Origin: Ignicoccus pacificus DSM 13166
GTDB lineage: Archaea; Thermoproteota; Thermoprotei_A; Sulfolobales; Ignicoccaceae
Assembly: GCA_025340205.1 (NCBI GenBank)
Contig: CP006868.1
Span: forward strand, 150,001 to 182,000
Reading direction: 5' to 3'
DNA: 32,000 nt
Position numbers and translations under genes: made by a program. The notes beneath the pieces were generated by a model. It had not been told where the DNA came from. It searched no databases and worked only from the letters and a program-made list of their open reading frames with translations. Below, one piece after another: positions 1 to 9,341 of this stretch (position 1 is its first letter; each line of letters begins with the position of its first letter).

Positions 1-759
1 GACGTATTGGATACCTACGTCACCGGGCTCTAACGCCTCCACGAATTCCATGATCTTTGGAGTCTTACCATTAGCTATGTCCTCTAAGACCTTTAACGCT
101 TCTTCACCAATCACCTTAACTATGTTCTCCTTTCCGAGAGCCTCCGTCCTCAGCTTGAAGAGCTCGTGGGGCTTGCCATGTCCCTCGACGAGGAAGTAAA
201 AGGTAGAGGCTAAGATGTACTTGTTTTCAGCCCCCAGCTCTGTTAACCAAGCCAATCTGTCAGAGTAGCGGAACCGGTCCTTTCCGAAGTCGTAGTTCTG
301 AGCAGCTGCTAGGACCACGTTGAGTTGTTCAAAGCCGAGAAGCTTGTTGAGCCTCTCAAGGGTCTTTAAGCCGAGCTCTATTTGATAAGGCACCTCTACC
401 TTCTCATAGATCTTGCCGAGCAATTCCTTAGTTTCTTCCAATGCCTCTTGGGTACTCATGTTCTCAAAGAGTATTAAGTAGGCGGGGTAAGCGAGTAAGC
501 AGAAGTCTGGCTTGAAGCCGCATACGAGTATGCTAGGGCCGGCGCTTAGTAGCATTGCTACCATGTAAGCGCCTATGAAGTCAGGCTTAGTAGGCTCCAC
601 GGGAGACACGAAGGTCTCATAGCCCTGGAATACTATGTCACTATACACGTCGGAGAAGTAATCATCTATTAGGATTATCCTCCTCTCCGGGTCCAGTAAG
701 TAATCTATTCCGGGTCCTAGCAGTAGGATGTGTTTATTTCTTTCGACGAACTTGGGCAA
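1..759 (-). CDS. hypothetical protein, 3'-truncated by the window edge (253 N-terminal codons present)
   Basis: Absent from the ORF track because it has no stop inside the window. My translation of the minus strand is open from an in-frame TAG (786-784) to base 1. The first start-like codon is TTG at 759-757. Sequence: LPKFVERNKHILLLGPGIDYLLDPERRIILIDDYF...KIMEFVEALEPGDVGIQYV. Codon usage resembles neighbouring genes. No family recognised. Confidence 0.5.
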   Translation of the reverse strand, partial: MPKFVERNKHILLLGPGIDYLLDPERRIILIDDYFSDVYSDIVFQGYETFVSPVEPTKPDFIGAYMVAMLLSAGPSILVCGFKPDFCLLAYPAYLILFENMSTQEALEETKELLGKIYEKVEVPYQIELGLKTLERLNKLLGFEQLNVVLAAAQNYDFGKDRFRYSDRLAWLTELGAENKYILASTFYFLVEGHGKPHELFKLRTEALGKENIVKVIGEEALKVLEDIANGKTPKIMEFVEALEPGDVGIQYV

Positions 760-793
760 ACCCTTCTCCCCGAGGACACACGGCTACCTCGTT

Positions 794-860
794 TTGAGCC
801 TTGAGTCCTTTGTTGGTCGATCAACGAACTACATTGAAGCATATATCTTGAAAAACTCCT
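794..860 (+). promoter_or_regulatory. putative promoter/operator region of the nap-like operon
   Basis: A/T-rich TATA-like ATATAT lies at 841-846, about 35 nt upstream of the GTG start at 880, implying a short or absent leader. Upstream are a tandem TTGAGCC/TTGAGTCC (794-808) and an imperfect palindrome GTTGGTCGATCAAC (812-825). Confidence 0.3.
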
Positions 861-879
861 AGCGTTAAATCACTCATGG

Positions 880-3800
880 GTGAAGTGTTTGCCCAGCACG
901 ACCCGACGAAACCTTTTGAAGGCTATTGCCCTAGGAGCCGCTATGGCCACTGTTGGAAGAGCTATGAAGTCCCTAGGCCTTGCCAGCAAGTACCCCGAGC
1001 TAACTGAGTCCCTCGAATCCTTAGCCTCCATGCAAGCAACTAAGACCAAGTACGTAATGACCATTAAGCCCATAGGACCTTGTAGGTTCTGTGGAACCGG
1101 ATGTGGAGTTCAAGCTCAAGTACTCCTAGACCCCAAGACTGGTCTAGCCGTCAACATGTTCGCAATCCTAGGTATACCGGTTTACCCCGTCAACCACGGT
1201 GCGATGTGTACCAAGGCATTCTACATTGCTAAGGCTCTCGGTTACGCTGGCAACAAGAAGGCCTACGAGCTCAGGCTCAAGAAGCCTGCTGTCATCAAGG
1301 ACTGGATCATACCTGAGCTCGGTAGGCCTCCGATAAGGCCCGAGGAGATACCCCTAGCTCCTAGGGTGAGGGCTAGGCAAGTAAGCAAGAACTACGCTGC
1401 CACCCTCACCCAAGAGGAGCACTACAAGAAGAACATGGTCGAGATTGATTGGGACACTGCCGTCAAGTTCTTCACCACCATGTTTAAGTACGCTGTCCAG
1501 AAGTATGGTCCTCACTCCTTCGCTTACTATGGAAGCGGACAGCTCGGTACTGAGGAGAGCTACGTAATCAACAAGCTGACCAAGGCCGGTATACACACCA
1601 ACAACCTAGACGGTAACCCAAGAATGTGTATGGTCTCTGCCGTCGGAGGTTACATCACCGGCTTCGGTGCCGACGAGCCCGAGACCAGCTACGACCACAT
1701 AGACATCCCCGAGCCCACCACTAAGGTTCACGCCGACACCTTCCTACTGATCGGTACCAACACCGCTGAGGCTCACCCGATCGTCTTCGGTAGGATAGCT
1801 AAGGTGAAGGAGTCCAACAAGAACGTGAAGGTAATCCTAGCTGACCCCAGGAAGACCAGGAGCGGAGCCATCGCCGACCTATGGCTACCTCTAAGGTGGT
1901 CCATGGACGTAGCCTTCATGAACACGCTAGCTTACATCCTAGTCCACGAGCTAGCTAAATGTAAGGCCGACCCCGCTACTGGAAAGGTCGAGTGTGAGAA
2001 CCCCGAGTGGATCGACTTCAAGTGGCTGAAGAGGCACGCTGACTTCGCTATCATTGAGAAGTCCCAGAAGACTTGGGCCCACAAGGACTACAACACCAAG
2101 TACAACAACCTAGACGGCCTCAACGAGGTATGGGACATGGGTACTACCGCCAGCATAGCTGGCAACTACAAGACCTATCCGAGCATCGGTAAGGAGTACA
2201 AGAACGACGAGGAGATAGAGAAGGACTGGTGGAAGGGCTTCGCCCTCTACGTGAAGTTCCTAGAGCTATACAAGCCTGAGGTAATGGTGAAGATACTCTT
2301 CGGCGACGAGATGCCTCTAATCAACAGGAAGACCGCTGAGGCCCTAGTGAAGGCCGGAGAGCTAGACCCCAAGAAGGTCAACCTCAACGAGACCACTCCA
2401 TTCGTAGAGATCGATCCCATCGAGGCCATGAAGCTAGCCACCAAGTGGATGGCCAAGGGCAGGACCCTAGTGCTCTGGACCATGGGCATCAACCAGAAGA
2501 TCCAGGGTGTGCACTCCATCAACACAATCATGAACTTCCTAGCGCTTACCGGAAAGATCGGCAAGTGGGGATCCGGTACCCTATCCCTAACCGGACAGCC
2601 TAACGCGTGTGGAGGAATCAGAGACCAAGGTGGACTGGCTCACGTACTGCCTTACGGAAGGCTGATCGCCAACAAGGCCGCTAGGCTAGAGGTGCAGAAG
2701 ATATGGCAGGAGCTAACCGCCATGTACCTGAAGTACCAGGGCTACCCGCAGAGTGAGATCCAGAAGATCGTGAAGCAAGTGTACATCCACCCGGTGCCCG
2801 GACCTCACGTCATAGAGATGTTCAGAAGAGTGAACGCCGGACAGATCAAGGTAATATGGATTGCCGAGACCAACCCCGGACAGAGCCTACCCAACGTGTA
2901 CAAGTACAGGGTAGGAATGGCCAAGCCTCACGACGACGACCCAGCGTTCCCATTCGTGGTAGTCAACGACATCTACCCGACCAGGACTACCGACGTGGCC
3001 GACCTAGTGTTCCCAGCAGCCGCCTACGCTGAGAAGGAGTTCAAGTACGGATGTACCGAGAGGAGGTACAGCGTCGCTAGGTATGTGATCAGGCCTCCGG
3101 GACAAGCCATCGGAGACCACGTGATCTTCGCCATGATAGGTAAGGCTCTAGAGGACGAGGGACTAGTACCCAAGGCCATAACCAGCGGATTCTTCCCTGA
3201 GAGGAATGTGGACGAGGCCGCCAAGCAGGCCGGTTACAAGAGCTGGGTCGACTACATAGTCAACAAGAGCCAGGAGGTAGAGTGGCACAAGAAGTTCCTC
3301 GACAGGATCTGGAACTACGACATACTAAGCCTATGTAAGAACACCTACTATGACTTCAGCTATGTCAAGAGGGACTTCTTCAGGAAGCTAATCACCGGAT
3401 TCAGGTGGCCTTGGCCGTGGACCTACGCTTACAACAAGGACGTCAAGGCTAGGTACGACAAGTATCACTCCGCCACCAGGTACGCCTATCCGTATGATCC
3501 GCTAATGCCCAAGCCAGAGCTAATCAAGCAGATGTACGAGAAGATCAAGAACATGAACAATCCCGAGGAGATCCATGCGTACATAATGAGCATACCGGAC
3601 ACTGAGCTACACCCGATCCACAAGAAGAAGTGGCTACACAAGGTCTACCACAACGTGACCCTCTTCAAGTGGGTTCTGAAGAACATAGTCGAAGAGATCG
3701 ACGACATGGAGTACAAGAAGAAGAGCAAGGTACCCAGCGACTGGTACGTGATCTTCTACGCTAAGCCCACCGGAAGGATGACCATCTGGGCAAGGCCATG

Positions 3801-4602
3801 GCTACCCGTGAACATGGACCATGAGACCGGCAAGCAGACCATCAACAAGAAGGTGATAATAACTTGGGAGAAGCTAGATGCCGACGCCGTCTTCAAGGGC
3901 AAGATCTCCGTCTTCGCCGCTCCCAAGGGACCATTCAAGGTGCTCAAGAAGGTAGTAGCTGAACCCACTGGCAACCCAGAGGTAGGACTGAACGTGCTAG
4001 CTACCAAGAGCTGGGGTGACGCCCTCAAGAGCAACTACGAGGACGTGCAGGCGATCTTCCAGATAGCCCTAGCGCCCGCCGAGGCTCCTGGCTTCGTGAT
4101 GAAGTACAGGCTACCCGACGGAAGTGTGCTAACCGTGAGAGACGACAGGAACTACCCGATGGTGGCCACCACCGGAAGAGTGATCGAGCACTGGCACACC
4201 TGTACCATGACTTGTAAGGTGCCCGAGCTAGTGAGAGTGAAGCCCAGCGCCTACGTGGAGATCAACAAGAAGGTGGCCGACAAGCTAGGAATAAGGGACG
4301 GCGAGTGGGTGACCGTGGAGAGTCCCAGAGGAAAGGTAACTGTGCCGGCCAGAGTGTTAGACCCCAAGACCGGACTAGGAGGACCCAGAGCGGACTACAC
4401 CTTCATACCATGGTTCGACCCCAACAAGCTGGCTAACGCAATCACGCTGGACAACTACGACGTACAGCCGTACTTCTTCCAGCCAGACTTCAAGACCTGT
4501 GCCGCCTACATAAGGAAGGCTAGGCCCGACGAGATACCGCCGGGAGGAGTGAGGTCGCCGGTACAGACCGGCAAGCCCAAGTACAACATAAACTACGTCT
4601 AA
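880..4602 (+). CDS. napA: molybdopterin (bis-MGD) oxidoreductase catalytic subunit, periplasmic nitrate reductase NapA-like, Tat-exported, 1240 aa
   Basis: GTG start followed by a twin-arginine signal (STTRRNLLKAIALGAAMATVGRA). N-terminal [4Fe-4S] motif CRFCGTGCGVQA closely matches the bacterial NapA motif. Also present: PVNHGAMCTKAFY, YGSGQLGTEESY, NPRMCMVSAV (position of the Mo-ligand Cys in NapA), GTNTAEAHPIVF, LTGQPNACGG and TGRVIEHWHTCTMTCKVPEL (NapA: GRVLEHWHTGSMTRRVPEL). The substrate cannot be proven from sequence. Confidence 0.85.
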   Translation: MKCLPSTTRRNLLKAIALGAAMATVGRAMKSLGLASKYPELTESLESLASMQATKTKYVMTIKPIGPCRFCGTGCGVQAQVLLDPKTGLAVNMFAILGIPVYPVNHGAMCTKAFYIAKALGYAGNKKAYELRLKKPAVIKDWIIPELGRPPIRPEEIPLAPRVRARQVSKNYAATLTQEEHYKKNMVEIDWDTAVKFFTTMFKYAVQKYGPHSFAYYGSGQLGTEESYVINKLTKAGIHTNNLDGNPRMCMVSAVGGYITGFGADEPETSYDHIDIPEPTTKVHADTFLLIGTNTAEAHPIVFGRIAKVKESNKNVKVILADPRKTRSGAIADLWLPLRWSMDVAFMNTLAYILVHELAKCKADPATGKVECENPEWIDFKWLKRHADFAIIEKSQKTWAHKDYNTKYNNLDGLNEVWDMGTTASIAGNYKTYPSIGKEYKNDEEIEKDWWKGFALYVKFLELYKPEVMVKILFGDEMPLINRKTAEALVKAGELDPKKVNLNETTPFVEIDPIEAMKLATKWMAKGRTLVLWTMGINQKIQGVHSINTIMNFLALTGKIGKWGSGTLSLTGQPNACGGIRDQGGLAHVLPYGRLIANKAARLEVQKIWQELTAMYLKYQGYPQSEIQKIVKQVYIHPVPGPHVIEMFRRVNAGQIKVIWIAETNPGQSLPNVYKYRVGMAKPHDDDPAFPFVVVNDIYPTRTTDVADLVFPAAAYAEKEFKYGCTERRYSVARYVIRPPGQAIGDHVIFAMIGKALEDEGLVPKAITSGFFPERNVDEAAKQAGYKSWVDYIVNKSQEVEWHKKFLDRIWNYDILSLCKNTYYDFSYVKRDFFRKLITGFRWPWPWTYAYNKDVKARYDKYHSATRYAYPYDPLMPKPELIKQMYEKIKNMNNPEEIHAYIMSIPDTELHPIHKKKWLHKVYHNVTLFKWVLKNIVEEIDDMEYKKKSKVPSDWYVIFYAKPTGRMTIWARPWLPVNMDHETGKQTINKKVIITWEKLDADAVFKGKISVFAAPKGPFKVLKKVVAEPTGNPEVGLNVLATKSWGDALKSNYEDVQAIFQIALAPAEAPGFVMKYRLPDGSVLTVRDDRNYPMVATTGRVIEHWHTCTMTCKVPELVRVKPSAYVEINKKVADKLGIRDGEWVTVESPRGKVTVPARVLDPKTGLGGPRADYTFIPWFDPNKLANAITLDNYDVQPYFFQPDFKTCAAYIRKARPDEIPPGGVRSPVQTGKPKYNINYV

Positions 4603-4687
4603 CCTTAGTTTCTTTTTGAACATTAACTCCCCGATCAATTAAGCATACCTAAATCCTCCCCCTCCCTCTCAGATAGGGAGCTCTGTA

Positions 4688-5692
4688 TTGCCCGAGGGCA
4701 AGGTTTCTACAAATAGTGAAAAGAAGAGGAGCGAAGCCAGGAGAGACTTCATCAAAGCCCTGATAGCGCTGGGTCTCGTTACCGTGATATCCCCGCAAGT
4801 GATAGCAGAGCTTGAGAAGAAGCCGGAGGGTCTAACTGACGATGATTGGTACGAACCCTTTGACATAACGGACGATCCAAAGAGACAGCAGCAATACGAG
4901 GAAAGCGCCAAGCTTCAGTTGGGGTATTCGTTAGTTATTGAGGAGAACGGGAGGAAGCTGGTAGCTAATCCCCTGCTCCCCAAGAAGCCTATAACCTACA
5001 TGGTGAAGTACGAGAAAGATAGGTTCAGGCTCCCTCCTCCCGGCGCCAAGGACCTCTTCGCTAGGTGCATTAGGTGCGGTCTCTGTGCCTCCGCTTGTGC
5101 CTCCATGGGCTACCACGCCATAAGGCTGGGAGACTTCAAGGATGGATATGTAATGCTGGGCGTACCTATAGTTGACAACCAAATTGAGTATCCTTGTACC
5201 CTATGTATGGAATGTACTAAGGTATGTCCCACCGGGGCTCTGGAGGAGATACCTCAGAGAGAGGTGAAGATGGGTATAGCTTTGATCGATCCCGATCTCT
5301 GCTGGGCGTGGAACACTGGAGAGTGCTACAGCTGCGCCAAAGCTTGTCCCTTCGGAACGGAGGTATTCGCCTTCAGATTCAACGAGTGGGGAGCTCACAC
5401 GCGAGTGCTTCCCGACAAATGCAATGGATGTGGTATGTGCGTACAAGCCTGTCCGGTAGTAGGGTCAGCAATCCACGTCTTACCCCCTGAGGAGTACGAG
5501 AGGAGGGTGAAGAACTTCAAGAACACTGGAATGAGCTATGAGGAATACATTAAGCTCATCTGGAAGACTGAGGATAGCATGTATACCGACCCTATGGCAT
5601 CGCTTAAGTTGACTTGGAGGGTAAACGTCAACGTAGACTACATAGTCAATAAGAGAGGTTTGATTGAGAGCAAGGTAAAGAAAAGTATGTGA
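4688..5692 (+). CDS. napG: Tat-signal 4x[4Fe-4S] ferredoxin, NapG-like electron-transfer subunit
   Basis: TTG start 7 nt after GGGAG. Twin-arginine motif SEARRDFIKALIALGLV. Four Cys clusters: CIRCGLCASAC, CTLCMECTKVCP, CWAWNTGECYSCAKACP and CNGCGMCVQACP. It sits between the NapA-like and NapH-like genes. Confidence 0.75.
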   Translation: MPEGKVSTNSEKKRSEARRDFIKALIALGLVTVISPQVIAELEKKPEGLTDDDWYEPFDITDDPKRQQQYEESAKLQLGYSLVIEENGRKLVANPLLPKKPITYMVKYEKDRFRLPPPGAKDLFARCIRCGLCASACASMGYHAIRLGDFKDGYVMLGVPIVDNQIEYPCTLCMECTKVCPTGALEEIPQREVKMGIALIDPDLCWAWNTGECYSCAKACPFGTEVFAFRFNEWGAHTRVLPDKCNGCGMCVQACPVVGSAIHVLPPEEYERRVKNFKNTGMSYEEYIKLIWKTEDSMYTDPMASLKLTWRVNVNVDYIVNKRGLIESKVKKSM

Positions 5693-5703
5693 GGTGATAT
5701 AGT

Positions 5704-7269
5704 ATGGTAGCAGATGGGGTAAAGAAGAACAAGTACGTACAAAAGGTAGTGAAATTCATCGAGGGGAGGCCGAAGAGAGGAAGATACACCTACCTGAGGA
5801 GGTTCTTCCAACTAGCTATACTCTTCCTCTTCTCCACTCAACTAGTCTTCAACGGCTACTGGATAGAAGGAAGCTTAGCCTCCTCGAGGGTCCTAACCGT
5901 AATGGCACTCTTCCCCTTGGCCGTCTTGGGCCTCTATTATATGTACAAAGGAATGAAGGAGATAAGTGACGTCTACAGAAAAGAGTACTTCATAGGTCGA
6001 ATAGGGTTCATCATATTGGTTATAGGCCTAGCTCTGGCGTTCTTCTACCTCTTCCAAGGAGTAGAACCTACTCTCATGCTGAAGGTCGTTAAGAGAGTAG
6101 AAGGTAAACAAGTGGTGCACTACGTAACCAATTGGCCGTTGATCATTACTTCAAGCTTGCTAACGGCCGGAATAATCGTAATGTTGGTATCCATATGGCA
6201 CTTGGGCCATAGAGGAGGACACCTAGTTCACGTAGTCCTCCAAGCGATGCCGATATACTTGGCGATGGCAATAGCAGCTTCGTTCCTGCTGAATACGCCG
6301 CTAGTAATATTAGGCTCCCTAGCGGTGGTGAACGCATTCTTAGCCATGGCTCTCTTCTCATTCTACGTTAACAAGAGGACTACTGACCCTAAGCTAGCGA
6401 AGGCCTCAAAGGACTTCGCCACAGCCTTTGGAATAGCAGCGATAGGAGTCGGCATAGCCACCGTGGTCTTCGGGGTAGCGGGAGCTCAGAGCTTCGCCAC
6501 CTTCAAGTATCCCATGATGGACCCGATAGCTTGGCTAGAGCACGCGGTAGCGGACAGGGGCTTTACCGTCGAATCCGTCGTTGCAGTGCTAGTAGTGGTC
6601 TTCCTCTACTCTGTACTGGGAAGGTTCTTCTGCGGCTGGGTATGTCCGATGGACCTACTCTTCTCAATATTCGAAAAGAAGCTGAACATGCCCAGAGATC
6701 CTCCTCAGATCAGGTTCCATAAGCCAACGAAGGCAGAGAAAATAGTGCCCATAATCGCCATAGCGGCTTACTTGGTGCTATCTTACATCTTCGCTCTGCC
6801 GTTCTTCACGACGATGTCCCCGGTTGCGGGAGCCACGAAGTTCGGGGAGTTCCTAATAGGAGTGCTCTACGACATACCGGGAGCCACCATAGGTACCGCA
6901 ATAGCCTTCGGATGGATAACGGCCTATGCCTTAATAATAAATATAATCGCTGAAAAGGTGTTCAAGATAAAGAGGTTCTGGTGCAAGTACGTCTGTCCTA
7001 TAGGTAACTTCTACGGATTCATAATGAACAAGTTCAGTCCCTTCAGACTAAAGGTGTCCTATCCAGAGAAGTGTACTAAGTGTAACTTGTGTAGCATGGC
7101 ATGTCCTATGAGCATAGACCTAGTGGACTACATAGTGAAGGGTAAGGACATCATGGATCACAGATGTTTCCACTGTGGAAGGTGTGCCGAGGTCTGCCCC
7201 TTCGGAGTACTCGAGCTGGGCTTCAGACTGAGGCAGCCTAAGGAAAACGAGGAAAAAGGAGGTCAGTAA
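5704..7269 (+). CDS. napH: integral-membrane polyferredoxin, NapH/NosH/MauN-like, with a large membrane insertion
   Basis: ATG follows a strong SD, GAGGTGAT (5691-5698). NapH-type elements: N-terminal RRFFQLAILFLF...GSLASS, two membrane-proximal CxxCP motifs (FFCGWVCPMD, FWCKYVCPIG), and C-terminal 2x[4Fe-4S] (CTKCNLCSMACP, CFHCGRCAEVCP). Multiple hydrophobic helices. Confidence 0.75.
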   Translation: MVADGVKKNKYVQKVVKFIEGRPKRGRYTYLRRFFQLAILFLFSTQLVFNGYWIEGSLASSRVLTVMALFPLAVLGLYYMYKGMKEISDVYRKEYFIGRIGFIILVIGLALAFFYLFQGVEPTLMLKVVKRVEGKQVVHYVTNWPLIITSSLLTAGIIVMLVSIWHLGHRGGHLVHVVLQAMPIYLAMAIAASFLLNTPLVILGSLAVVNAFLAMALFSFYVNKRTTDPKLAKASKDFATAFGIAAIGVGIATVVFGVAGAQSFATFKYPMMDPIAWLEHAVADRGFTVESVVAVLVVVFLYSVLGRFFCGWVCPMDLLFSIFEKKLNMPRDPPQIRFHKPTKAEKIVPIIAIAAYLVLSYIFALPFFTTMSPVAGATKFGEFLIGVLYDIPGATIGTAIAFGWITAYALIINIIAEKVFKIKRFWCKYVCPIGNFYGFIMNKFSPFRLKVSYPEKCTKCNLCSMACPMSIDLVDYIVKGKDIMDHRCFHCGRCAEVCPFGVLELGFRLRQPKENEEKGGQ

Positions 7270-7682
7270 CCTCCTCTCATTTGCTCGAGAATTGTTTTTA
7301 TATAGTTCTTTGCGTCCTCGTCTAAAGCAATTTCTCCATTTAAGAGCATCTCGTTTATCGCGTCCTCCAGGGCCTTGTCTTGGAGAAAGCCGTAGCTCAC
7401 GTAAGCCTTAGCGACGCCGGGATGGGCCTCCGCTGCCTTGATCAAGTCCTCGAGCTGGTTGACCGTCTCGGCCTCTACGTAGTAGACGATGTACAAGTCA
7501 GTACCCAAGTCATATAACTCAAAGCCCAAAGACTCCAAGTGTTTCTTTATCTCCTCTATCTTGGCAGGGTCACCCCTATGAGTGGGATTTACCAAAATGA
7601 AGCCTGTGGCGAACGGCATAGCCTTCCTACCCTTGTCCTTAATCGTGTCCAGGTTTTTGAATAACTCACTAATGGCACCCAT
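7263..7682 (-). CDS. small cytoplasmic protein with a ferredoxin-like (beta-alpha-beta-beta-alpha-beta) core; NapD-like chaperone candidate or stand-alone RAM/ACT-like domain
   Basis: 139 aa. The core GFILVNPTH...IEEIKKHLESLGFELYDLGTDLYIVYYVEAETVNQLEDLIKAAEAHPGVAKAYVSYGF aligns by eye with E. coli NapD (...GQLIVVVEAEDSETLIQTIESVRNVEGVLAVSLVYH). It is convergent with napH and overlaps its 3' end by 7 nt. Confidence 0.6.
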   Translation of the reverse strand: MGAISELFKNLDTIKDKGRKAMPFATGFILVNPTHRGDPAKIEEIKKHLESLGFELYDLGTDLYIVYYVEAETVNQLEDLIKAAEAHPGVAKAYVSYGFLQDKALEDAINEMLLNGEIALDEDAKNYIKTILEQMRGGY

Positions 7683-7753
7683 GTTCGCTAGTATACGCCG
7701 ATGATAGCTCTAACTAATATAGTAGCCTTGATGAGGAGTGGCGGAGTGAGAGC

Positions 7754-8602
7754 ATGGACATCATAGGGCTGCTGTTCTGGCTGTTGCTGTTCAGCGTCAT
7801 AGCGGAGCCACTGCTAGAGTACCAGAGGGTTAAGGCAGCCAGAATGGCCATACTAAAGAGAATAGAGGACAAGTACGGATACAGAGTAATAACCCTCATT
7901 CATAGACAAGAGAGAGTAGGCTTCTTCGGAGTTCCCATATACAGGTTCATCGACATAGAGGACAGCGAGGCCGTAGTGAGGGCGATAAGGAGCACTCCTA
8001 AGGATAAGCCGATAATGATAATCCTCCACACACCGGGAGGGATGGTGCTAGCCGCTTCCCAGATAGCCCATGCCTTGCACAAGCATCCAGCTAAGACCGT
8101 GGCCGTGGTACCTCATTACGCCATGAGCGGTGGAACCCTCATAGCTATAGCTGCTGACGAGATCTGGATGGACCCAGCCGCTGCCTTAGGCCCTCTAGAC
8201 CCACAGATCCCCGTCGACATGCAGCACTTACCGGCTCCCAGCTTGGTCAAGGTAATCAAGGAGAAGGGTAAGGAAGCCAGTGACAAGTTCTTAGTTTATG
8301 GAGACGTAGCTGAGAAGGCCTTAAAGGAGATGTACGATACAGTGCTAAAGTTCCTAAAGAGTAAGATGGATGAAGAGAAGGCTAAGGCTGTAGCGGAGGA
8401 ACTGGTAATGGGTAAGTACACTCACGACTATCCGCTCTTCTATGAGAAGGTGAAGGAGCTAGGCTTGCCGGTCAAGGACAAGGTACCTCCGGAGGTATAC
8501 GAACTCATGGAACTGTACCCACAGGCGCAAGCTCAGAGACCCGGAGTAGAGTACTTGCCTTACCACATGCCTCAACCGCAGAAGAGGTCAAACACAGCAT
8601 GA
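7754..8602 (+). CDS. membrane-anchored ClpP-fold serine protease (SDH / serine dehydrogenase proteinase family-like)
   Basis: N-terminal TM helix (IIGLLFWLLLFSVIA). Then ITLIHRQE...DIEDSEAVVRAIRSTPKDKPIMIILHTPGGMVLAASQIAHAL...VPHYAMSGGTLIAIAADEIWMDPAAALGPLDPQ, typical of this archaeal/bacterial ClpP-class family. Confidence 0.75.
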   Translation: MDIIGLLFWLLLFSVIAEPLLEYQRVKAARMAILKRIEDKYGYRVITLIHRQERVGFFGVPIYRFIDIEDSEAVVRAIRSTPKDKPIMIILHTPGGMVLAASQIAHALHKHPAKTVAVVPHYAMSGGTLIAIAADEIWMDPAAALGPLDPQIPVDMQHLPAPSLVKVIKEKGKEASDKFLVYGDVAEKALKEMYDTVLKFLKSKMDEEKAKAVAEELVMGKYTHDYPLFYEKVKELGLPVKDKVPPEVYELMELYPQAQAQRPGVEYLPYHMPQPQKRSNTA

Positions 8603-8608
8603 TTTTTT
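8603..8608 (+). terminator. oligo-T tract (T6) immediately after the protease stop codon
   Basis: TGATTTTTTG at 8600-8609. Archaeal intrinsic terminators are short oligo-T runs. Confidence 0.3.
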
Positions 8609-8798
8609 GAAAAATTACCTACCAGTGTAGAGGGCCTCCACGAGGTAGAAGTCCACCTCGTCCTCGGTTCTTTCCTCCACCTCATTCCTTCTAACCAGAA
8701 CTAAAGCCATTTCAGACCCCAGTCTTAGAAGTAAGCGTAGTTTAAGGGTACTAGTCTGAAAGATATTAAGACAGAAGTCGAAAAATTCTATTCAGAAC

Positions 8799-9341
8799 CT
8801 ACTTCCCCCAATAGTACTTGATGTAGGCGTTGAGTACTTTGACTCCTTGCGATCCCAGCTCGAGCCATATTAGGTATCTCCCCTCTCTCCAAAGGATGTG
8901 AACTCTATCCCTAACGTCCGGAATAATGTAGAACGTCGTGTTACCTATCTGATGAGGTATGGGCGTCCCGTAAGGTAGCTTACCCTGAAGCTGAGCTATT
9001 CTATTAACCATCTCATCTTCTAGCTTCTTAGCTATAACTGGGCTCTTGAGCTCAGCAATCCAAGCTATGGAACCATCGGAGTAAATGACTACGGCTCCGT
9101 TCACCAAGCCCTTTAACGCTTCTGGGTCCCAATGGATCGACTTAATCTTCTCTATTCCCTCATTGCCTACGTAGGCCTTCAGAACAGTGACGTTCCCTAT
9201 CCTCTCAGGGAAAGTCAAGATGGATGTGGTGGACGTAGCGGGAGATTGAGGATGATATGTTGTGTTGAAGAGGTATACGTCAGCAACTATACCTAAGGCT
9301 ATTACTACTAAGAGCGGAAGGGAGCTCTTAATGGACTTCAA
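8799..9341 (-). CDS. hypothetical membrane-anchored/secreted protein
   Basis: 180-aa ORF with a TTG start and an N-terminal hydrophobic anchor (KSSLPLLVVIALGIVADVYLF). No motif recognised. Confidence 0.55.
   Translation of the reverse strand: MKSIKSSLPLLVVIALGIVADVYLFNTTYHPQSPATSTTSILTFPERIGNVTVLKAYVGNEGIEKIKSIHWDPEALKGLVNGAVVIYSDGSIAWIAELKSPVIAKKLEDEMVNRIAQLQGKLPYGTPIPHQIGNTTFYIIPDVRDRVHILWREGRYLIWLELGSQGVKVLNAYIKYYWGK

What the first reader, a model, noticed from the sequence alone, without database searches (positions are those of the whole stretch)
880..7682. Nap-type (NapA-NapG-NapH) respiratory cluster in an archaeal context, without any cytochrome c subunit
The catalytic subunit carries the NapA-type CRFCGTGCGV cluster motif, the Cys at the Mo-ligand position and a Tat signal. 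It is followed by a Tat-signal four-cluster ferredoxin and a CxxCP-type membrane polyferredoxin, the NapG/NapH quinol-dehydrogenase pair known from bacteria. No CxxCH haem-binding motif occurs in the operon, so there is no NapB or NapC. This implies an all-iron-sulfur route from quinol to an outward-facing molybdoenzyme. To my knowledge archaeal nitrate respiration is usually described with Nar-type enzymes, so a Nap-like module is noteworthy. The true substrate (nitrate or another oxyanion/sulfur compound) cannot be read from the sequence.
Basis: partly seen in the sequence, partly recalled or inferred. Interest (0 to 1): 0.6.

Follow-up and report, generated by a model that had tools for sequence, protein, structure and literature searches.

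The report
Long-form Nap nitrate reductase cluster, Ignicoccus
This is a real Nap-type (periplasmic) nitrate-reductase gene cluster in a hyperthermophilic Ignicoccus archaeon; close relatives' copies are already published, and the enzyme family has its own small cytochrome c that this genome encodes elsewhere.

Summary
Window 880-7682 encodes a Tat-signal 1240-aa molybdoenzyme, a Tat-signal four-cluster ferredoxin (NapG-like), a membrane Cx3CP polyferredoxin (NapH-like) and, convergently, a NapD-like protein. No CxxCH occurs in any frame of window 1-9000.

The Nap reading is supported. The catalytic subunit sits inside the Nap clade (100/100 support), apart from Nas and Fdh. Its closest solved relative is the monomeric NapA of Desulfovibrio desulfuricans. 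Positions aligned with Cys140, Met141, Met308 and Arg354 of that enzyme are kept.

It is not new. The I. hospitalis orthologue (Igni1377-1380) was described in 2008, Pyrodictium delaneyi Nap in 2017 and 2021, and the ~40% identical NapB-less napAGHD of Desulfurivibrio in 2017. This scan met the same system earlier in three other genomes.

"No cytochrome c, all iron-sulfur route" is probably wrong for the system. A monohaem cytochrome c with a reelin-N-like fold lies directly upstream of long napA in every bacterial locus examined, and within a few kb in Pyrodictiaceae. This genome carries two unlinked paralogues.

The substrate is open. Ignicoccus is reported not to respire nitrate, and this genome lacks the Psr-type sulfur reductase of its sister species.

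The parts
880..4602 (+). Long-form NapA-type catalytic subunit (1240 aa, P0001). It has a Tat signal, an N-terminal [4Fe-4S] motif and the Mo-ligand Cys250. It carries about 470 residues of insertions relative to 720-830-aa NapA.
   Evidence: NapA NF010055 is the best family, 362 bits against a cut-off of 904; D. desulfuricans NapA, 399 bits; inside the Nap clade, 100/100; insertion map; AF2 pLDDT 93.6; TM 0.92 over 2JIO/2NAP.
4688..5692 (+). NapG-like Tat-exported ferredoxin with four [4Fe-4S] motifs (334 aa, P0002).
   Evidence: NapG NF007012 is the best family, 91 bits against a cut-off of 269; 16 Cys in four motifs; ARRDFIKA; always follows long napA.
5704..7269 (+). NapH-like membrane subunit (521 aa, P0003). 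It has two Cx3CP motifs, two C-terminal [4Fe-4S] motifs, and an inserted block of about 205 aa with six hydrophobic segments (residues ~64-268).
   Evidence: NapH NF007013, 128 bits against a cut-off of 234; 26, 70, 72; the insertion is shared with I. islandicus NapH.
7263..7682 (-). NapD-like small protein. The conserved start is probably Met22, which gives about 118 aa (7263-7619). It is convergent to napH and overlaps its stop by 7 nt.
   Evidence: Pfam NapD E 0.002, 18.7 bits, below the cut-off of 28; conserved family; E. coli NapD is the top solved match, weak; kept beside the nap genes in 8 relatives; a NapD gene sits at the same place in the bacterial operons.
1..759 (-). Divergently transcribed conserved cytoplasmic protein (P0273, 296 aa; it runs 131 nt beyond the window start). 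It has a PTP/DSP-like fold without the catalytic Arg and four invariant Cys. It may be an accessory factor.
   Evidence: next to long napA in 6 of 8 archaeal relatives; no Pfam family.

Best explanation
The cluster encodes a long-form, NapB-less periplasmic-type nitrate reductase system of an Ignicoccus archaeon.

Shown:
- The gene set is NapA(long)-NapG-NapH plus a NapD-like protein.
- NapA and NapG carry Tat signals.
- The Nap active-site positions are kept.
- The catalytic subunit belongs to the Nap clade.

Inferred mechanism:
- The cofactor-loaded NapA and NapG are exported by Tat to the outer face of the cytoplasmic membrane. In Ignicoccus this is the intermembrane compartment.
- Menaquinol is oxidised by the NapH/NapG module. 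Futalosine-pathway genes are present in the genome.
- Electrons reach the [4Fe-4S] cluster and the Mo-bisPGD of NapA. This probably goes through the family's dedicated monohaem cytochrome c, which has a reelin-N-like fold and is encoded here at two unlinked loci.
- At the Mo centre, nitrate is reduced to nitrite.
- The NapD-like protein would act as the Tat-signal-binding chaperone.
- Nitrite could then be handled by the genome's HAO-like and Otr-like octahaem cytochromes.

The genus is reported not to grow on nitrate. The role here is therefore more likely an auxiliary electron sink, or an untested respiration such as formate or H2 to nitrate, than the main energy metabolism.
For: Family and fold:
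- NapA is the best NCBIfam family.
- D. desulfuricans NapA is the best solved relative by sequence: 399 bits, against 270 for E. coli NapA and at most 189 for any Fdh.
- It is also the best by fold: TM 0.92 over 2JIO/2NAP, from a model with pLDDT 93.6.

Active site:
- Cys250, Met251, Met535 and Arg581 align with Cys140, Met141, Met308 and Arg354 of the D. desulfuricans enzyme.
- These positions are nearly invariant across 58 long and short NapA sequences.
- The motif is Cys-Met, not the Sec/Cys-His of Fdh.

Tree:
- IQ-TREE, 59 rows, 740 columns, Fdh outgroup. The long clade has 100/100 support and lies inside a 100/100 Nap clade with E. coli and Agrobacterium NapA. Nas and Fdh are separate. 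FastTree on 154 rows agrees.

Synteny:
- A-G-H(-D) is kept in archaeal and bacterial long-form loci.

Published function in relatives:
- D. alkaliphilus napAGHD is highly expressed with nitrate and not without it (PMC5516251).
- D. dismutans NapA is strongly up on nitrate (PMC12142623).
- P. delaneyi grows on nitrate, has the Nap proteins in its proteome and shows nitrate reductase activity (PMC5556600, PMC8105010).
- No NarG above cut-off was found in Pyrolobus, two Pyrodictium-sized genomes, Hyperthermus or this genome.

Cytochrome partner:
- The same monohaem family (invariant CxxCH; alignment A6) lies directly upstream of long napA in L004, L005, L006, D. alkaliphilus and Ca. Kryptonium.
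- In a 301-genome sample of one bacterial phylum, the 5 genomes with long napA are exactly the 5 with strong matches, and each match is adjacent to napA.
- It lies about 1.3-2.4 kb from napA in the 5 Pyrodictiaceae loci read (L039-L043). It is about 0.35 kb upstream of napA in a sixth genome (G104) and about 5 kb away in a seventh (G097).
- This genome has two paralogues, at 462780-463466 and 1387769-1388299.

Genome context:
- The only other Mo-bisPGD enzyme is a Cys-type Fdh-N-like complex.
- There are four octahaem cytochromes, two Otr-like and two HAO-like.
- MqnA/D family genes are present.
Against: - Nitrate is reported not to serve as sole electron acceptor in Ignicoccus (PMC2614490, citing the species descriptions).
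- The I. hospitalis NapG-like protein is made during growth on S0/H2 without nitrate (PMC3149612).
- In P. delaneyi the Nap protein did not change in abundance between nitrate and iron growth (PMC8105010).
- All four proteins score far below NCBIfam's equivalog cut-offs.
- No enzyme of the long-form clade has been purified, to my knowledge.
- The cytochrome link rests on gene neighbourhood and co-occurrence among related genomes, not on a binding test. In this genome the cytochrome genes are unlinked to nap.
- The NapD assignment rests on weak sequence similarity plus synteny.
Confidence: 0.62

Rival explanations
1. The complex is the same, but in Ignicoccus it reduces something other than nitrate. 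Candidates are polysulfide or elemental sulfur, thiosulfate, or another oxyanion such as chlorate or selenate. It would then contribute to the sulfur-based respiration of the genus.
For: - Ignicoccus does not respire nitrate (PMC2614490).
- The I. hospitalis NapG-like protein is expressed on S0/H2 (PMC3149612).
- This genome has no Psr/Sre-type molybdoenzyme, unlike I. hospitalis (834 aa) and I. islandicus (825 aa). The Nap-like enzyme is therefore its only outward-facing Mo reductase.
- In I. islandicus, napG, napH, the NapD-like gene and the monohaem cytochrome sit beside the Psr-like enzyme genes rather than beside napA.
- Hyperthermus butylicus carries the cluster too. From my own knowledge it is a sulfur-reducing fermenter.
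Against: - The active-site positions match nitrate-reducing NapA.
- The protein is nested in the Nap clade.
- The closest characterised organisms with this clade use it with nitrate (PMC5516251, PMC12142623, PMC5556600).
- To my knowledge, no Nap-clade enzyme is known to reduce sulfur compounds.
- Non-molybdenum sulfur reductases were not searched for in this genome.
Confidence: 0.18
2. One reading: electrons pass from quinol through NapH and NapG directly to NapA using iron-sulfur clusters only. No cytochrome c takes part.
For: - There is no CxxCH in the locus, and none within 20 kb of napA in the four Ignicoccus-type loci inspected.
- NapG is Tat-exported and has four clusters, so it could dock on NapA directly.
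- Thorup et al. regarded the Desulfurivibrio NapA as monomeric with an unknown donor (PMC5516251).
- In the archaeal order sample, 2 genomes with long napA showed no cytochrome match. Both assemblies are incomplete or fragmented.
Against: - The monohaem cytochrome gene is strictly adjacent to long napA in every bacterial locus or genome examined. It is close to napA in Pyrodictiaceae.
- Two to three paralogues are present in every complete Ignicoccus genome searched.
Confidence: 0.3
3. The complex is a formate dehydrogenase or CO2 reductase. The I. hospitalis genome paper raised this as an alternative.
For: The catalytic subunit has secondary similarity to Fdh-alpha models (277 bits). Podar et al. 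noted similarity to both families (PMC2614490).
Against: - The Fdh outgroup is separated with 100/100 support.
- The active site has Cys-Met instead of Sec/Cys-His.
- The genome has a separate, typical Cys-His Fdh-N-like complex with FdhD and FdhE.
- NapG/NapH partners are not Fdh partners.
Confidence: 0.03

Closest known systems
Igni1377-1380 of Ignicoccus hospitalis, the 'nitrate reductase-like complex' (Podar et al. 2008, PMC2614490)
   Same: It is the orthologous four-gene set, NapD-like, NapA(long), NapG and NapH. NapA is 72% identical. It is in the same genus, and there is no cytochrome gene nearby.
   Different: Gene order differs: the NapD-like gene is upstream on the same strand there, and convergent downstream here. 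The I. hospitalis NapH (323 aa) lacks the ~205-aa membrane insertion. I. hospitalis also has a Psr-type molybdoenzyme, which this genome lacks.
napAGHD of Desulfurivibrio alkaliphilus and D. dismutans, with relatives in Nitrospirota and Ca. Kryptonia (Thorup et al. 2017, PMC5516251; PMC12142623)
   Same: It is the same long, NapB-less NapA clade (about 40% identity, 100/100 sister group). It has the same G-H-D partners, and most NapA insertions are shared. The same monohaem cytochrome family is present.
   Different: The bacterial NapA is about 1110 aa against 1240 aa. The cytochrome gene is directly upstream of napA there and unlinked here. Nitrate induction has been shown there and is untested here.
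Monomeric NapA of Desulfovibrio desulfuricans ATCC 27774 (PDB 2NAP, 2JIO)
   Same: It is the best solved relative by sequence (399 bits) and by fold (TM 0.92 over the crystal structure). The Mo-ligand Cys, Met141, Met308 and Arg354 equivalents are kept.
   Different: It is 723 aa against 1240 aa. About 470 extra residues are spread over at least six insertions, the largest at about 850-1088. Whole-protein identity is only about 27%.
Pyrodictium delaneyi Nap (Pyrde_1154-1156; NapADFGH of strain Hulk; PMC8105010, PMC5556600)
   Same: The long NapA is orthologous: about 74% identity to the two Pyrodictium-sized genomes. NapG, NapH and the NapD-like gene are in the same order as here.
   Different: [quoted passage not shown] Its monohaem cytochrome gene lies about 2.4 kb upstream of napA. 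Its NapA has a longer linker after the Tat signal.
E. coli and Wolinella NapGH quinol dehydrogenase with NapAB
   Same: NapG has four clusters and a Tat signal. NapH has two Cx3CP motifs and two [4Fe-4S] motifs.
   Different: There is no NapB dihaem subunit, no NapC and no NapF. Scores are far below the equivalog cut-offs. NapG has extra N- and C-terminal segments, and NapH has an extra six-segment membrane block.

Membership tests
NapA (periplasmic nitrate reductase catalytic subunit) | Twin-arginine signal peptide | tested here: met
   TTRRNLLKA followed by a hydrophobic stretch. The motif is conserved in 14 archaeal orthologues.
NapA (periplasmic nitrate reductase catalytic subunit) | N-terminal [4Fe-4S] motif, and a Cys ligand to Mo followed by Met (Cys-Met, not Sec/Cys-His) | tested here: met
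   C68, C71, C75 and C110. Cys250-Met251 aligns with Cys140-Met141 of D. desulfuricans NapA and with the RHCMASAV motif of E. coli NapA.
NapA (periplasmic nitrate reductase catalytic subunit) | Active-site Met308 and Arg354 equivalents (D. desulfuricans numbering; the identity of these residues is from my own knowledge of the structure papers) | tested here: met
   Met535 and Arg581 in the HMMER alignment. Both are nearly invariant in 58 sequences.
NapA (periplasmic nitrate reductase catalytic subunit) | Placement inside the Nap clade, separate from Nas and Fdh | tested here: met
   IQ-TREE gives 100/100 for the Nap clade that includes E. coli and Agrobacterium NapA. Nas and Fdh references fall outside it.
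NapA (periplasmic nitrate reductase catalytic subunit) | Score above NCBIfam's NapA equivalog cut-off | tested here: not met
   362.6 bits against a cut-off of 904, in four separate stretches because of the insertions. Short monomeric-type NapA relatives also fall below it, at 661-765 bits.
NapA (periplasmic nitrate reductase catalytic subunit) | Nitrate reductase activity | not testable with these tools
   Only indirect evidence exists: nitrate induction in Desulfurivibrio and activity in P. delaneyi extracts (PMC5516251, PMC8105010).
NapG/NapH quinol dehydrogenase module | NapG: Tat signal plus four [4Fe-4S] motifs. NapH: membrane protein with two Cx3CP motifs and two C-terminal [4Fe-4S] motifs. 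| tested here: met
   NapG and NapH are the best NCBIfam families, but both are below cut-off (91 against 269; 128 against 234).
NapG/NapH quinol dehydrogenase module | Quinol oxidation | not testable with these tools
   Only the presence of futalosine-pathway MqnA/D family genes was checked.
NapD (Tat proofreading chaperone of NapA) | Sequence membership in PF03927, and similarity to solved NapD | tested here: inconclusive
   Pfam NapD at 18.7 bits is below the cut-off of 28. hhalign against E. coli NapD gives probability 15%, E 0.0018. NapD is the top PDB match of the family profile, at E 0.09. Synteny with the nap genes is kept in 8 relatives.
NapB / NapC cytochrome subunits | Dihaem NapB (PF03892) or tetrahaem NapC/NirT (PF03264) encoded with nap | tested here: not met
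   No CxxCH in window 1-9000. No PF03892 match in the genome. The only PF03264 match is a domain of a distant octahaem protein.

The most novel reading that the evidence does not exclude
In Ignicoccus the long Nap enzyme is not a nitrate reductase in vivo. Instead it is a terminal reductase of the sulfur-based respiration. The genus is reported not to respire nitrate, and this genome lacks the Psr/Sre-type molybdoenzyme. The enzyme would be fed by a portable NapH-NapG-monohaem cytochrome c module, which in I. islandicus is encoded beside the Psr-like enzyme. That would be the first Nap-clade enzyme with a non-nitrogen substrate.
Probability: 0.1. Interest if true: 0.75.

Novelty: new member of a known kind. 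Interest (0 to 1): 0.33.

Why it matters
This specific cluster adds little. It is one more orthologue of a published, though biochemically uncharacterised, archaeal Nap system.

Two points could matter.

First, the long NapB-less Nap enzymes have been described with an unknown electron donor. The strict linkage with a reelin-N-fold monohaem cytochrome c, across bacteria and archaea, names a concrete candidate. It can be tested in Desulfurivibrio, which is cultivable and shows nitrate induction.

Second, Ignicoccus presents a standing puzzle. It keeps and expresses a Nap-type enzyme in a genus that does not grow on nitrate. This genome sharpens the puzzle, because the Nap-type enzyme and an Fdh-N-like complex are its only two molybdopterin enzymes.

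Tried and rejected
- Complex prediction of the NapD-like family with NapA residues 1-50 gave 'no answer' (median score 0.31, mark 0.32). This is no evidence either way.
- The first careful tree with the mixture model was killed by the sandbox limits. I reran it with LG+G4.
- Rfam and tRNA scans of the window found nothing.
- Pfam found no family for the divergent upstream protein or its orthologues.
- The supplements of Thorup et al. that are held as text did not show whether the gene upstream of napA was noticed or measured.
- I did not verify the species name myself. I verified only that the genome is in the same genus as genomes whose sizes match I. hospitalis and I. islandicus.
- Formate dehydrogenase and Nas readings were rejected on the tree and the active-site motif.

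Full report
**What is there.** Window 880-7682 holds four genes.

- 880-4602 (+) encodes a 1240-aa protein. It has a twin-arginine motif (TTRRNLLKA) and an N-terminal C68-x2-C71-x3-C75...C110 cluster motif. It also has the molybdopterin oxidoreductase and dinucleotide-binding domains.
- 4688-5692 (+) encodes a 334-aa protein with a Tat motif (ARRDFIKA) and 16 cysteines in four [4Fe-4S] motifs.
- 5704-7269 (+) encodes a 521-aa membrane protein. It has two Cx3CP motifs (C310..C314-P, C427..C431-P) and two C-terminal [4Fe-4S] motifs.
- 7263-7682 (-) encodes a small protein that converges on the third gene.

NapA, NapG and NapH are the best NCBIfam families for the first three, but all score far below the equivalog cut-offs: 362 against 904, 91 against 269, and 128 against 234. 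No CxxCH occurs in any of the six frames of window 1-9000.

**Organism.** The window lies in a complete 1,685,057-bp genome with 48% G+C. It is in the same genus as genomes whose single contigs measure 1,297,538 bp and 1,394,664 bp. The second of these is named Ignicoccus islandicus by its source. I did not verify the species name.

**Is it Nap?** By sequence, the best solved relative is the monomeric NapA of Desulfovibrio desulfuricans (399 bits). The heterodimeric NapAs follow at about 254-272 bits, and formate dehydrogenases reach at most 189.

In that alignment, Cys250-Met251 falls on Cys140-Met141, Met535 on Met308 and Arg581 on Arg354. These positions are nearly invariant in an alignment of 58 long and short NapA relatives. 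The motif RMCMVSAV matches the E. coli NapA motif RHCMASAV. The genome's other molybdoenzyme has RRCH at the Sec-His position of FdnG.

An AlphaFold model of residues 45-1240 is confident (pLDDT 93.6, pTM 0.93). Its best Foldseek matches are 2JIO and 2NAP (TM 0.92 over the crystal structure), then the other NapAs, then Fdh.

A maximum-likelihood tree used 59 rows, 740 columns, LG+G4 and an Fdh outgroup. The archaeal and bacterial long forms make one 100/100 clade. That clade lies inside a 100/100 Nap clade that also holds E. coli and Agrobacterium NapA and the ~750-aa monomeric types. Nas references and Fdh references lie outside. A 154-row FastTree gives the same grouping.

**What is unusual about the catalytic subunit.** It carries about 470 residues more than a 720-830-aa NapA. 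They are spread over several insertions, at roughly 141-182, 358-446, 478-513, 611-630, 765-813 and 850-1088. Most are shared with the ~1110-aa bacterial relatives, and the model folds them with high confidence. At 50% clustering, the whole long-form family collapses into two clusters among 1.8 billion proteins, one archaeal and one bacterial.

**Distribution and synteny.** In a 121-genome sample of the order, the long NapA was found only in the window's own family (4 of 5 other genomes) and one sister family (8 of 14). It was found in none of about 100 genomes of the other families searched.

napA-napG-napH and the small convergent or flanking gene are kept together in I. hospitalis, Pyrolobus, Hyperthermus and four further relatives. 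They are also kept together in the bacterial loci, where the last gene is a weak Pfam NapD hit.

The small protein here has only weak NapD similarity: Pfam E 0.002, and E. coli NapD as the top solved match at E 0.09. Its assignment therefore rests mainly on position.

**Already published.**
- Podar et al. 2008 described the orthologous four-gene operon Igni1377-1380 as close homologues of bacterial periplasmic nitrate reductases. They left its function open because nitrate does not serve as sole acceptor in Ignicoccus (PMC2614490).
- The NapG-like protein of I. hospitalis was seen in proteomes of S0/H2-grown cells (PMC3149612).
- Demey et al. 2017 reported NapADFGH homologues and growth on nitrate for Pyrodictium delaneyi (PMC5556600).
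- Kashyap and Holden 2021 found the Nap-like proteins in the P. delaneyi proteome. They measured nitrate reductase activity and saw no differential abundance (PMC8105010).
- Thorup et al. 2017 described the Desulfurivibrio napAGHD operon as a novel, NapB-less type of NapA. It is highly expressed with nitrate, and its donor is unknown (PMC5516251).
- D. dismutans NapA is strongly up on nitrate (PMC12142623).

This scan itself met the system before, in P. delaneyi, Pyrolobus fumarii and I. islandicus.

**The cytochrome question.** The locus has no haem c motif. The genome has no NapB family match. Its only NapC/NirT-type match is a domain of a distant octahaem protein.

The genome does make c-type cytochromes: four octahaem proteins, one tetrahaem and several single-motif candidates.

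I scanned relatives' loci for CxxCH and found a monohaem protein of about 160-250 aa next to long napA.
- It is directly upstream in three bacterial-type MAG loci (L004, L005, L006).
- It lies about 1.3-2.4 kb from napA in the five Pyrodictiaceae loci.

These proteins are one family, with 36-47% identity between bacterial and archaeal members.

The genes directly upstream of napA in D. alkaliphilus (L049:5371-5916) and Ca. Kryptonium (L050:5447-5983) belong to the same family. The invariant residues include the CxxCH motif.

I then searched a 301-genome sample of the bacterial phylum that holds locus L006. The five genomes with a long NapA are exactly the five with strong matches to this cytochrome, and each match is adjacent to napA. 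These five genomes are kin, so the count overstates independence.

The domain is a weak Pfam Reeler match. The family is the 'cluster 38' monohaem cytochrome family of Kletzin et al. 2015, modelled there on the reelin-N domain of F-spondin and left without a function. Its two I. hospitalis members are Igni_1052 and a protein printed there as both Igni_0579 and Igni_0759 (PMC4429474).

In the archaeal order sample, 11 genomes have both long NapA and this cytochrome. Two incomplete or fragmented assemblies have NapA only, three have the cytochrome only, and about 105 have neither.

This genome has two paralogues, at 462780-463466 and 1387769-1388299. Neither is near nap.

In I. islandicus the cytochrome gene lies in one cluster with napG, napH and the NapD-like gene, next to a Psr-like molybdoenzyme.

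The 'all iron-sulfur route' is therefore an inference from one locus that the family-wide picture does not support. A cytochrome step is likely but untested.

**Substrate.** Evidence for nitrate:
- The active site and the clade are those of Nap.
- Nitrate induction is published for the bacterial members.
- Pyrolobus and the Pyrodictium-sized genomes have no NarG above cut-off, so the long NapA is their best candidate nitrate reductase.

This genome also has no NrfA. It does have two Otr-like and two HAO-like octahaem cytochromes that could take nitrite further. It has a Cys-type Fdh-N-like complex with FdhD and FdhE as a possible donor side, and MqnA/D family genes for menaquinone.

Evidence against nitrate as the physiological substrate here:
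- The genus is reported not to respire nitrate.
- The complex is expressed without nitrate in I. hospitalis.
- This genome has only two molybdopterin enzymes.
- It lacks the Psr-type enzyme present in I. hospitalis and I. islandicus.

I rate nitrate reduction, perhaps as an auxiliary sink or an untested respiration, at about 0.6. I rate a different substrate at about 0.2.

**Other features.**
- The NapH insertion (about residues 64-268, six hydrophobic segments) keeps the topology. It is shared with I. islandicus NapH at 52% identity over the full length, but not with I. hospitalis or the Pyrodictiaceae.
- The divergent upstream gene (P0273) is kept beside long napA in 6 of 8 archaeal relatives. 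It has no Pfam family. It folds confidently (pLDDT 94.8), with an N-terminal PTP/DSP-like domain whose P-loop keeps the Cys but not the Arg. It has four invariant cysteines.

**Verdict.** The Nap assignment is supported. The claim of novelty and the cytochrome-free route are not supported. This is a further member of a known, biochemically uncharacterised, long NapB-less Nap family.

Noticed in passing
window 1-759 (-), continuing 131 nt before the window start (L018:490-1380): A divergent 296-aa cytoplasmic protein is kept next to long napA in 6 of 8 archaeal relatives. It has no Pfam family. The AF2 model has pLDDT 94.8, with an N-terminal PTP/DSP phosphatase-like fold (TM ~0.72 to SDP-1, Tk-PTP, SsoPTP). 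The P-loop is C80-x6-C87 without the catalytic Arg, and four Cys are invariant (80, 87, 264, 270). It may be a maturation or redox accessory factor.
   Followed up: partly
window 5896-6514 (NapH residues ~64-268): A block of about 205 aa with six hydrophobic segments is inserted between the first and second conserved helices of NapH. It is shared with I. islandicus NapH (497 aa, 52% identity over the full length). It is absent from I. hospitalis, the Pyrodictiaceae and the bacterial NapH proteins.
   Followed up: partly
genome 462780-463466 (-) and 1387769-1388299 (-) (L047:4777-5466, L048:4667-5308): These are two paralogues of the reelin-N-like monohaem cytochrome c family that is adjacent to long napA in bacteria and Pyrodictiaceae. 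One ends in a Thr/Val-rich tail. The other ends in a C-terminal membrane anchor.
   Followed up: partly
L046 and L051 (I. islandicus genome, 121-135 kb): A Psr-like molybdoenzyme (825 aa), a PsrB-like protein, NapG, long NapH, a convergent NapD-like gene and the monohaem cytochrome form one cluster. napA lies about 620 kb away. This suggests that NapGH plus the cytochrome is a portable electron-input module.
   Followed up: partly
genome 1145-1150 kb (L010:1860-10187): The second and only other molybdopterin enzyme of the genome is a Tat-signal, Cys-type Fdh-N-like complex. It comprises alpha (1232 aa, RRCH at the Sec-His position), beta and gamma subunits, with FdhE- and FdhD-like genes. No Psr/Sre-type enzyme was found in this genome.
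   Followed up: partly
genome 469796-471382, 924013-925590, 934395-936320, 1458541-1460211: There are four octahaem cytochromes c. Two are Otr-like (TIGR04315, about 212 bits, below cut-off). Two are HAO/hydrazine-dehydrogenase-like. They are candidate nitrite or hydroxylamine reductases, or sulfur-compound reductases.
   Followed up: partly
alignment A5 (N-termini of archaeal long NapA): Pyrodictiaceae orthologues carry long Thr-rich linkers between the Tat signal and the first cluster Cys. The Ignicoccus proteins do not. Whether this relates to S-layer versus double-membrane cell envelopes is speculation.
   Followed up: no
window 7754-8602 (+): A ClpP-like SDH-type serine protease (PF01972, E 5e-114) lies directly after the nap cluster. 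It is syntenic only with I. islandicus.
   Followed up: no
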